A program made the translations under genes and the position numbers. Shown here in pieces: positions 22,472 to 24,341 of a stretch of DNA of 25,842 nucleotides (its first letter is position 1; the number at the start of each line of letters is the position of its first letter). Origin of the DNA: Planctomycetota bacterium (GTDB lineage Bacteria; Planctomycetota; SBBH01; JAHFOU01); assembly GCA_023261525.1 (NCBI GenBank), contig JAHFOU010000002.1:1-25842 (forward strand). Reading direction: 5' to 3'. The notes below the pieces were generated by a model. The model did no database searches and was not told the origin of the DNA. It saw only the letters and a list, made by a program, of their open reading frames with translations.

Positions 22472-23244
22472 AGGACGGACCTCTCCCGTTCTGGAGGGTG
22501 CTGGTGGGGGCGGGCGTGGGGATGGGGCTGGGGGCCCTGGCCCTGAAGCTCCTGCATTCCGGCCAGGATCCCCTGCTCTGGGCCTGTCCCCTGGGGGCGG
22601 TGCTGGGCGCGCGCTGGGCCGCCGGGGCGGGGGGGACGGCGCGCTGGACGGCCCTGCTGGCCTCCCTGGTCATCTGGTGGGGGGCGAGGTGGGTGCTGTT
22701 CCGTTGTTCAGAAGAGATTTCCAATGATCCTGCATTTAATGCCGCGGATTTCGCGTTCCTTTGCGGAGGATGGTGTGTGTTGGTGTGGCGATCCTTGATC
22801 AAACTCAGCCACCGCGCGCTCCCGCCGGGAGTTTTGCCGCTGGCGTTGATCGGGCTCTTCATCGATCGATTGACGATGTCGGCGGGATTGGGGTTGATCA
22901 CGCTGGCCAATGTGTTTGGCAGTCTCCCTGCGGAGAGCTTTGCCGTAGGCATGTACGGCATCTGGATCTGTCTTTGGGCGGCGGCCCTGCTTTGCGGGTT
23001 GGGCAGTCTTTGCGGGTTGGCGGGCGACCTGGACATTCCCTGGGCCAAGGCCACCTCTGCCGCAGCCTTGCTCGCCGGGCTCATGCTGGTCGATTGCATG
23101 CTTTTCCCGAGGATGATCCCGGGTCCATGGCGCCCCTGGTTGATCCAGGGGGTCTTTGTGCTGATCGAATCCCTCTGGTTCCTCTTCTGGGCCCGACGCG
23201 TCGTCCGCGCCAGGGACTTGCCGCCCGCCCCGGAGCAGGGATAA
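22468..23244 (+). CDS. Uncharacterised polytopic membrane protein (258 aa), paralogue of 21851..22471
   Basis: Hydrophobic C-terminal part of ORF 21769..23244; GGAGG upstream and ATGA overlap. Confidence 0.75.
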   Translation: MKDGPLPFWRVLVGAGVGMGLGALALKLLHSGQDPLLWACPLGAVLGARWAAGAGGTARWTALLASLVIWWGARWVLFRCSEEISNDPAFNAADFAFLCGGWCVLVWRSLIKLSHRALPPGVLPLALIGLFIDRLTMSAGLGLITLANVFGSLPAESFAVGMYGIWICLWAAALLCGLGSLCGLAGDLDIPWAKATSAAALLAGLMLVDCMLFPRMIPGPWRPWLIQGVFVLIESLWFLFWARRVVRARDLPPAPEQG

Positions 23245-23245
23245 T
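23240..23245 (+). promoter_or_regulatory. Putative -10 box (GATAAT, containing the upstream TAA stop) for a leaderless mqnE
   Basis: GATAAT, then 7 nt, then ATG 23253. Confidence 0.45.
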
Positions 23246-23252
23246 GCCGTCC

Positions 23253-24341
23253 ATGCTTTCCGTCTCCGCCGACCTGTAGGATGTCGCCGCCAAGGCCCTG
23301 GCGGGGGAGCGGATCGACGCCCAAGACGCCGAGGCCTGCTACCGCACGTCCGACCTCCCCGGCCTGGGCTGGATCGCCAACCAGGTGAGGGAAAAGCGCC
23401 ACGGCAACAAGGCCACCTACATCGTCAACTCCCACCTCAACTACTCCAACCTCTGCACCCTGGCCTGCAAGTTCTGCGCCTTCGCTCGCACCAGAGGGCG
23501 CGAAGGCGCCTACGAGCTGAGCCTGCCCCAGATCCTGGAGAAGGCCGACCGGGCCGCCGCCCTGGGCGCCTCCGAGCTCCACATCGTCGGCGGCCTCCAT
23601 CCCGACCTTCCCTATGCCTGGTACCTGGAGATGCTCTCCACCCTGAGGGCCAAGCATCCGGCGATGCACCTCAAGGCCTTCACCGCCGTCGAGATCCGCT
23701 ACCTTGCCGACCTGGCCAAGAAGCCCATCCGCGACGTCCTCGTCGAGCTGCGCGAAGCCGGCCTGGGCTCCCTGCCCGGGGGCGGGGCCGAGATCTTCGC
23801 CGAGAAGGTCCGCAAGGAGATCTGCGGCCCCAAGGACACCTCGGCCGAGTGGCTGGAGGTCCACCGCATCGCCCACGGCCTGGGCCTGCGCTCCACGGCC
23901 ACCATGCTCTACGGCCACATCGAGAGCGCCGCCGACCGGGTGGACCATCTGATGCGCCTCAGGGCCCTCCAGGACGAGACCAAGGGCTTCCTGGCCTTCA
24001 TCCCGCTCTCCTTCCATCCGGAAGGGACCCGCATCGTGGTCCACCAGGCCTCCGGGATGGAGGACCTGCGCAACGTGGCGGTCGCCCGCCTGGTCCTGGA
24101 CAACTTCGACCATGTGAAGGCCTATTGGACCCAGACCGGGCTCAGGCTGGCCCAGCTCGCCCTCCATTTCGGCGCGGACGACATCGACGGCACGGTCGTG
24201 GAGGAGACGATCACCCATATGGCCGGGGGCAAGGCGCCCCGGGGCATGGCCGAGGAGGGTCTGAGGAAGATCATCCGGGCCGCCGGACGGAACCCGGTGC
24301 GGCGGGACACTTTGCATCGGGATCTGGAACAGGCCGCCTGA
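23253..24341 (+). CDS. mqnE: Aminofutalosine synthase MqnE (radical SAM), interrupted by an in-frame TAG at codon 9 (23277-23279); possibly pseudogene, sequencing error or recoded
   Basis: CTLACKFC, ELHIVGGLHP, LKAFTAVEI, LPGGGAEIF, TMLYGHIE, FGADDIDGTVVEE..HMAG. The region between the TAG and GTG 23385 translates as a typical MqnE N-terminus (AKALAGERID...DLPGLGWIANQVREKRHG). Confidence 0.88.

What the first reader, a model, noticed from the sequence alone, without database searches (positions are those of the whole stretch)
23253..23388. In-frame amber codon at position 9 of mqnE
Seen: ATG CTT TCC GTC TCC GCC GAC CTG TAG GAT GTC GCC GCC AAG..., with a leaderless-type promoter before the ATG. 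The 35 codons after the TAG are in frame, host-like in codon usage and MqnE-like, and the ORF track starts only at GTG 23385. TAG is a true stop in at least seven other genes here (e.g. S15 ...LRK, BamA ...VF), so global reassignment is excluded. Options: a sequencing/assembly error or recent nonsense mutation (CAG, AAG or GAG would fit), or site-specific readthrough (pyrrolysine or suppressor) that makes menaquinone synthesis conditional.
Basis: partly seen in the sequence, partly recalled or inferred. Interest (0 to 1): 0.68.

Follow-up and report, generated by a model that had tools for sequence, protein, structure and literature searches.

The report
Stray amber codon in mqnE
The stop codon near the start of this menaquinone-synthesis gene is really in the assembly. 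It is most likely a wrong or rare base call in a very thinly sequenced groundwater genome that has several similar stray stops, not a recoding signal.

Summary
ATG 23253 is followed eight codons later by an in-frame TAG (23277-79). The frame then runs on as a full MqnE, aminofutalosine synthase (TIGR03700, 475 bits, cut-off 435).

The four nearest relatives (92-81% identical) share the N-terminus and have Lys, Lys, Arg and Gln at that column. The 92% relative has AAA there, with its ATG aligned to 23253.

The window belongs to a MAG of 405 contigs, 72% complete, with 64 N-gaps. In the two public runs that hold this strain, depth is only about 2-5x. No laid contig covers 23277-23349, and one contig stops at 23276.

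The MAG has at least six more in-frame stops in conserved genes:
- TAG in a HEAT protein, where the relative has CAG.
- TAG in a dehydrogenase E1-alpha subunit (Pfam E1_dh), where 8 of 9 relatives have Trp.
- TAG in a protein kinase, a VWA domain and an MFS transporter.
- TGA in a PD40 repeat.

With this genome's codon usage, 72% of random nonsense substitutions would give TAG. TAG also ends 38% of gene-like ORFs. I found no tRNA-CUA and no PylS, PylC or PylD. MqnA/D-type genes and MqnC are intact, and no MenD or second mqnE was found.

Verdict: a base-call error or rare allele of a low-depth assembly (about 0.75). A real nonsense mutation is possible (about 0.15). Programmed readthrough is unlikely (under 0.05).

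The parts
23218..23245 (+). Promoter-like site TTGCCG-16 nt-GATAAT. The -10 element ends 7 nt before ATG 23253.
   Evidence: 9 of 12 matches, 0.0 expected in shuffles. This is a consensus match only. The stretch is absent from the 92% relative.
23242..23246 (+). TAATG: the upstream gene's stop (TAA 23242-44) overlaps an alternative in-frame ATG (23244-46). GGAG lies 8 nt upstream.
   Evidence: read directly from the sequence.
23253..23255 (+). ATG, the start of mqnE conserved with the nearest relative.
   Evidence: it aligns base for base with the ATG of the 363-aa relative P0001 (L031/L032).
23277..23279 (+). In-frame TAG, codon 9 from ATG 23253.
   Evidence: The relative has AAA here. Four relatives have K, K, R and Q. 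No laid Logan contig covers it.
23280..24341 (+). The rest of mqnE: 353 codons plus TGA, with the radical-SAM Cys motif CTLACKFC.
   Evidence: TIGR03700, 474.9 bits against a cut-off of 434.55, protein residues 3-348 on profile positions 2-350. Radical_SAM and CofH_C.
23385..23387 (+). GTG, the first canonical in-frame start after the TAG. It is the ORF caller's start and probably not a real start.
   Evidence: It falls inside the conserved stretch ...GLGWIANQVREKRHG. No Shine-Dalgarno-like sequence is visible upstream.

Best explanation
mqnE here is an ordinary single-copy aminofutalosine synthase gene of the futalosine route to menaquinone. The T at 23277 is a single-base substitution in a Lys, Gln or Arg codon (AAG or CAG to TAG). 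It got into the consensus because the MAG was assembled at about 2-5x depth. It is either a sequencing or assembly error (about 0.5) or a rare nonsense allele sampled from the population (about 0.25). In the organism the gene is read normally, and nothing is recoded. Shown: the TAG, the sense codons in relatives, the low depth, the other scattered stops, and the lack of suppression machinery. Inferred: that the true or majority base at 23277 is not T.
For: (1) The N-terminus upstream of the TAG is homologous in relatives, and the TAG column holds K, K, R and Q. The 92% relative has ATG aligned with 23253 and AAA at the TAG. Gene order around it is the same.
(2) Quality: the MAG has 405 contigs, is 72% complete and has 64 runs of 10 N. 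The two runs with 100%-identical pieces have word depth 2.4 and 5.25, in pieces of 60-360 nt. None covers 23277-23349. No listed run holds any sampled word of 23247-23349.
(3) The same MAG has other in-frame stops inside conserved genes. C196 has a TAG in a 600-aa HEAT protein whose five relatives are uninterrupted (602-618 aa) with Q or R there, and CAG in the nearest. C281 has a TAG inside E1_dh where 8 of 9 relatives have Trp. C224 has a TAG inside Pkinase. C256 has a TAG inside VWA. C375 has a TAG in an MFS protein that is uninterrupted in relatives. C34 has a TGA at the Trp of a P-x-W-SPDG repeat.
(4) With this codon usage, 72% of random nonsense substitutions give TAG, so 6 TAG to 1-2 TGA is what chance predicts.
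(5) TAG ends 351 of 934 gene-like ORFs.
(6) The rest of the pathway is intact: MqnC scores 451 bits and two PF02621 genes are present. No MenD and no second MqnE were found.
Against: No read or contig showing another base at 23277 was seen directly. The unlaid terminal letter of the X1 contig is an inference from coordinates. An exact-pattern scan of JGI metagenomes with N at 23277 found nothing. Seven or more nonsense codons per 2.5 Mb is many for an Illumina consensus. All candidates found are substitutions and none is a frameshift, which fits real point mutations as well as errors.
Confidence: 0.75

Rival explanations
1. The TAG is a genuine, fixed or common nonsense mutation, so mqnE is a recent pseudogene in a lineage accumulating point mutations. 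MqnE would be absent or made only in traces by near-cognate readthrough. The cell would then depend on exogenous quinone or on a metabolism without menaquinone.
For: The TAG is in the assembly. Several other genes carry single nonsense codons without frameshifts, as G:C-to-A:T-biased mutation would give: CAG to TAG in the HEAT gene and TGG to TAG in E1-alpha.
Against: MqnC and two MqnA/D-type genes are intact, and no alternative MenD route was found. Codon usage after the TAG is undecayed. The protein is 92% identical to an intact relative. The hit genes include central ones such as the E1-alpha dehydrogenase subunit. Depth is too low to call any allele fixed.
Confidence: 0.15
2. The TAG is decoded by an amber suppressor tRNA or by pyrrolysine, giving conditional or partial synthesis of MqnE and of the other TAG-interrupted proteins.
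For: Six of the seven or eight in-frame stops found are TAG. The genome is only 72% complete, so a tRNA-CUA could be unassembled. The organism does use recoding of another stop: it has a tRNA-Sec and a probable UxxC redoxin.
Against: None of the 37 tRNAs found has a CUA anticodon, and the one odd ARAGORN hit is an 87% GC artefact. PylS has no match, and PylD and PylC only match far below cut-off. The TAG excess equals the 72% expected by chance. The TAG columns hold different residues in relatives: K/R/Q, Q/R and a conserved W. None of the TAGs is shared with relatives. 38% of genes end in TAG. At least one in-frame TGA of the same kind exists.
Confidence: 0.04
3. The ATG-to-TAG stretch is a separate 8-codon leader ORF, and MqnE starts after the TAG at a non-canonical codon (for example CTG 23298) or by reinitiation.
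For: The 78% relative P0006 starts with a Met that aligns with the TAG column, so the first 8-11 residues are dispensable in that lineage. The TIGR03700 profile begins two residues after the TAG. Elsewhere in the MAG a signal-peptide ORF seems to start at a CTG right after a TAG (C179).
Against: The residues before the TAG (SVSADL) align, at both DNA and protein level, with the N-termini of four relatives in the same frame. There is no ATG, GTG or TTG in frame until 23385. The ATG at 23281 is out of frame.
Confidence: 0.03

Closest known systems
MqnE, aminofutalosine synthase (radical SAM; NCBIfam TIGR03700) of the futalosine pathway
   Same: It scores above the curated cut-off over the whole profile and has the CxxxCxxC motif, the Radical_SAM and CofH_C domains, and MqnC and MqnA/D-type genes in the genome.
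   Different: The assembled reading frame carries a TAG at codon 9. Relatives have Lys, Arg or Gln there.
Pyrrolysine-encoding genes (in-frame UAG in the methylamine methyltransferases mtmB, mtbB and mttB, read with pylT/pylS/pylBCD). This comparison is from general knowledge.
   Same: An in-frame UAG inside a conserved enzyme gene.
   Different: No pyl genes and no tRNA-CUA were found. The UAG is not conserved in orthologues. The gene family is unrelated to methylamine metabolism. TAG is a frequent true stop here.
Consensus errors and rare alleles in low-coverage metagenome-assembled genomes
   Same: Depth is about 2-5x, the assembly is fragmented and N-gapped, and isolated single-base nonsense codons are scattered over unrelated conserved genes in the proportions expected from codon usage.
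   Different: The reads themselves could not be inspected at the site.
Leaderless mqnE transcripts with a -10 element next to the ORF in Deinococcus-Thermus (PMC12340547)
   Same: A GATAAT -10-like hexamer ends 7 nt before ATG 23253. That paper uses the mqnE upstream region of D. radiodurans as its model for this arrangement.
   Different: The phylum of this MAG is unknown. The element lies in the 3' end of the preceding co-oriented gene, is missing in the 92% relative, and was not tested. It has no bearing on the TAG.

Membership tests
MqnE (TIGR03700) | Whole-protein score above the curated cut-off | tested here: met
   474.9 bits against 434.55. MqnC (TIGR03699) scores 382 on the same protein, below its own cut-off of 428.
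MqnE (TIGR03700) | Radical-SAM CxxxCxxC cluster motif and the Radical_SAM plus CofH_C domains | tested here: met
   CTLACKFC is in the translation. Pfam gives PF04055 and PF19288.
MqnE (TIGR03700) | Uninterrupted reading frame from a start codon | tested here: not met
   TAG at 23277-79. This holds in the assembly only; whether it holds in the cells is unknown.
MqnE (TIGR03700) | Genomic company of the other futalosine-pathway genes | tested here: met
   MqnC on C201 scores 451 bits, above its cut-off. Two PF02621 genes lie on C215 and C247. No MenD was found.
Pyrrolysine recoding | pylS and pylBCD present in the genome | tested here: not met
   PylS has no match. PylD scores 19 bits and PylC 26 bits, far below their cut-offs. 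The genome is 72% complete.
Pyrrolysine recoding | tRNA with CUA anticodon (pylT) | tested here: not met
   37 tRNAs found, none with CUA. The genome is incomplete, so this is not proof of absence.
Programmed stop-codon readthrough or recoding | The stop codon is conserved at the site in related genes | tested here: not met
   relatives have K (AAA), K, R and Q.
TAG reassignment (genome-wide) | TAG is not used as a terminator | tested here: not met
   351 of 934 gene-like ORFs end in TAG. In the window, S15, BamA and the ferredoxin gene end in TAG at the expected C-termini.
Low-coverage assembly artefact or rare allele | Low read depth at the site | tested here: met
   word depth is 2.4 (X1) and 5.25 (X2) beside the site, and no laid contig lies on 23277-23349; no listed run holds that stretch.
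Low-coverage assembly artefact or rare allele | Similar isolated lesions elsewhere in the assembly, in chance proportions | tested here: met
   at least 5 more TAG and 1-2 TGA in conserved genes. The expected TAG share is 72%.
Low-coverage assembly artefact or rare allele | Reads show another base at the site | tested here: inconclusive
   only contigs were available. One X1 contig ends at 23276 with one unlaid letter. The letter itself was not shown.

The most novel reading that the evidence does not exclude
The six or more in-frame TAGs of this MAG are real and tolerated because the organism carries an unassembled amber suppressor tRNA or has leaky UAG termination. MqnE and several other proteins would then be made by partial readthrough in a bacterium that still uses TAG as a stop for 38% of its genes.
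Probability: 0.04. Interest if true: 0.7.

Novelty: not a real feature. Interest (0 to 1): 0.1.

Why it matters
As it stands, this matters mainly for annotation. The 318-aa gene call from GTG 23385 is a truncation artefact, and the locus should be read as a full-length mqnE of about 362 aa with one doubtful base. The MAG as a whole should be treated as error-prone at the single-base level. At least seven other conserved genes are split in the same way, which will inflate pseudogene counts and distort metabolic reconstructions. If reads showed the TAGs to be real and frequent, the case would become interesting, as either natural amber suppression or ongoing point-mutational decay in a free-living groundwater bacterium.

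Tried and rejected
- Raw reads: only Logan contigs were served, and none covers the TAG. A second run search with just 23247-23349 listed no run.
- An exact-pattern scan of JGI metagenome contigs with N at 23277 gave no match.
- I looked up the 93-aa upstream-gene fragment that the 315-nt X1 contig should encode, hoping to read its last letter. It is not on record.
- Sister genomes: the reference set holds none in the same family or order. The nearest are same-class genomes at about 50% identity. The 92-78% relatives came from the protein collection instead.
- Frameshift reading (ATG 23281 is out of frame): rejected, because the frame is the same before and after the TAG in the alignment with the relative.
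- Second mqnE: none. The only paralogue is MqnC at 40% identity.
- The ARAGORN hit 'tRNA-???' on C360 is an 87% GC artefact with a 6-nt loop.
- C179, a coding-potential candidate for an in-frame TAG, is the normal stop of a deformylase gene followed by a signal-peptide ORF with a probable CTG start.
- Taxonomy: MqnE loci from named genomes and the protein atlas on PNPase did not place the organism. The cluster look-up gave no names.
- Earlier scan notes on this genome do not concern stop codons.

Full report
**Observation.** ATG lies at 23253-55, followed by seven sense codons, TAG at 23277-79, and then the same frame stays open to TGA 24339-41. The ORF list starts the gene only at GTG 23385, giving 318 aa. 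The 353 codons after the TAG score 474.9 bits on NCBIfam TIGR03700 (aminofutalosine synthase MqnE, cut-off 434.55). The match begins at the third residue after the TAG and at profile position 2. Pfam finds Radical_SAM and CofH_C. On a codon-usage model trained on this genome, the 35 codons between the TAG and the GTG score 0.59 per codon, the same as the rest of the gene. TAG is a normal terminator in the window. S15 ends ...LRK TAG, BamA ends ...NFGTVF TAG, and four other long ORFs end in TAG. One of them is the ferredoxin gene directly downstream, which is 162 aa exactly as in the relative.

**Where the gene starts.** The protein collection holds relatives at 92, 81, 81, 81 and 78% identity. 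Four of them carry an N-terminal extension homologous to the stretch before the TAG:
- This window has ...SADL*DVAAKAL.
- The relatives have ...PELKPVAEKAL...DDLKTVAGKVE...EDLRAVAGKVE and ...PDLQAVARKVE.

The TAG column therefore holds Lys, Lys, Arg and Gln. At DNA level, the ATG of the 92% relative aligns with ATG 23253, and its codon at the TAG position is AAA. Gene order is the same in both: MFS, acyltransferase, two small genes, mqnE, ferredoxin, metallo-beta-lactamase, deformylase. The ATG-to-TAG stretch is thus part of mqnE, not a leader ORF, and there is no frameshift.

A second in-frame ATG at 23244 overlaps the upstream gene's TAA (TAATG) and has GGAG 8 nt upstream. It could be the start used here, which would make the TAG codon 12. 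The promoter-like TTGCCG-16-GATAAT ending at 23245 is a real consensus match. It recalls the '-10 next to the ORF' arrangement described for mqnE in Deinococcus-Thermus (PMC12340547). It is untested and does not bear on the TAG.

**The assembly.** The window is contig C155 of a MAG with 405 contigs, 2.53 Mb, 72% completeness, 69% GC and 64 runs of ten N. Public runs holding this stretch are groundwater metagenomes. In the two that carry 100%-identical pieces, Logan's contigs have word depth 2.4 (X1) and 5.25 (X2) and are broken into pieces of 60-360 nt. No laid piece covers 23277-23349.

In X1, a 315-letter contig matches 22963-23276 over 314 letters without a mismatch. I read this as a hint that the solid words of that run carry a base other than T there, but the letter itself was not shown. 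No listed run holds any sampled word of 23247-23349. A JGI metagenome scan with N at 23277 found nothing. It does show that the TAG rests on very few reads.

**Other in-frame stops in the same genome.** I scanned all contigs for stop codons flanked by coding-like sequence in the same frame and checked the candidates by homology.

| Site | Stop | Gene | What relatives show |
|---|---|---|---|
| C196 | TAG | 600-aa HEAT-repeat protein | Five relatives of 602-618 aa cover it end to end, with Gln or Arg at the column. The nearest has CAG, so one C-to-T change. |
| C281 | TAG | E1_dh domain | The PDB alignment runs through it. Relatives have no stop. 8 of 9 have Trp, so TGG to TAG. |
| C224 | TAG | Protein-kinase domain | The alignment runs through it. 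|
| C256 | TAG | VWA domain | The domain match spans it. |
| C375 | TAG | MFS transporter | Uninterrupted in relatives. |
| C34 | TGA | PD40 repeat | It sits at the Trp of the P-x-W-SPDG motif. |
| C309 | TGA | Protein of about 1000 aa | Probable; not checked by homology. |

No candidate looked like a frameshift.

**Is the TAG bias meaningful?** It is not. With this genome's codon usage (GAG 5.5%, AAG 3.8%, CAG 3.0%, TGG 1.5%, and very few CGA, GGA, CAA or AAA), 72% of all single-base changes that create a stop create TAG. The same share holds for G:C-to-A:T transitions alone. Six TAG against one or two TGA is what chance predicts. The TAG columns correspond to different residues in relatives: Lys/Arg/Gln in MqnE, Gln/Arg in the HEAT protein, and a conserved Trp in E1-alpha. 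That fits random one-step changes from AAG, CAG and TGG. It does not fit a codon read as one particular amino acid.

**Tests of recoding.**
- ARAGORN finds 37 tRNAs and a tmRNA in the MAG. None has a CUA anticodon, and a tRNA-Sec (UCA) is present. The single unclassified hit is an 87% GC artefact.
- PylS has no match. PylD and PylC only reach 19 and 26 bits.
- TAG terminates 351 of 934 gene-like ORFs.
- None of the TAGs is shared with relatives.
- The genome is incomplete, so absence is not proven. Nothing positive supports suppression.

**Pathway context.** MqnC (C201, 451 bits, above its cut-off) and two PF02621 (MqnA/MqnD-type) genes are intact. No MenD and no second MqnE were found. A true null allele of the only mqnE would disable an otherwise intact menaquinone pathway.

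If the TAG were real, rescue looks unlikely. The next in-frame canonical start is GTG 23385, inside the conserved ...GLGWIANQVREKRHG stretch. It would remove 35 residues covered by the family profile. The ATG at 23281 is out of frame. The 78% relative starts with a Met at the TAG column. The residues before the TAG are therefore dispensable as such, and the problem is only the lack of a start codon after it.

**Conclusion.** The most economical reading is that T23277 is one of a scatter of single-base nonsense calls in a 2-5x assembly. About 0.5 of the weight goes to sequencing or assembly error and about 0.25 to a rare allele caught by thin sampling. The organism then has a normal mqnE with Lys or Gln at this codon. 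A genuine common nonsense mutation (about 0.15) cannot be excluded without reads. Suppression or pyrrolysine (about 0.04) and a leader ORF with a non-canonical start (about 0.03) are poorly supported.

The decisive step is to count bases in the raw reads at 23277 and at the other seven sites. The earlier notes of this scan on this genome concern other features, and the TAG had not been noted before.

Noticed in passing
G000 contig C274:1118-1120 (locus L045), with tRNA-Sec at C318:2880-2977: An in-frame TGA sits at the first Cys position of a thioredoxin/redoxin-fold protein (...LLEFWGTH-TGA-PPCVSGLP). A UxxC motif together with a tRNA-Sec(UCA) in the genome suggests a probable selenoprotein rather than an error.
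   Followed up: partly
G000 contigs C196:19521-23, C281:1426-28, C224:4427-29, C256:9102-04, C375:7289-91 (all TAG), and C34:6191-93 and C309:1748-50 (TGA): These are in-frame stop codons inside conserved genes: a HEAT protein, a dehydrogenase E1-alpha subunit (Pfam E1_dh), a Ser/Thr kinase, a VWA protein, an MFS transporter, a PD40 repeat protein and a large pseudopilin-like protein. Gene calls there will be split or truncated.
   Followed up: yes
G000 contig C179:5148-5150 (locus L036): The peptide deformylase gene ends in TAG. The codon right after it is CTG, followed by a clean signal-peptide sequence (RPALAGLLIAAAALAAEDK...), with no ATG, GTG or TTG for 23 codons. This is a probable CTG start.
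   Followed up: no
window 23218-23255: A -35/-10-like pair lies at the 3' end of the upstream gene, and the -10 ends 7 nt before the mqnE ATG. A 2025 paper (PMC12340547) uses the mqnE upstream region as its model for leaderless expression from a -10 next to the ORF in Deinococcus-Thermus. The element is absent from the 92% relative.
   Followed up: partly
window 23242-23246: There is a TAATG stop/start overlap between the last gene of the upstream co-oriented cluster and an alternative in-frame ATG of mqnE, with GGAG 8 nt upstream. This suggests translational coupling as an alternative to the leaderless start.
   Followed up: no
G000, several contigs (C100, C128, C52, C214, C309): This is a family of large proteins with near-identical prepilin-like N-terminal helices (...GVVLLIVVGVLGILVVL...). 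Each follows, in the same frame, a gene ending ...DDLTLVY.P....R.L.W.
   Followed up: no
window 23280 region compared with protein P0006: The 78% identical MqnE relative starts with a Met at the column of the TAG. The N-terminal extension of 8-11 residues is therefore lineage-specific and probably dispensable.
   Followed up: partly
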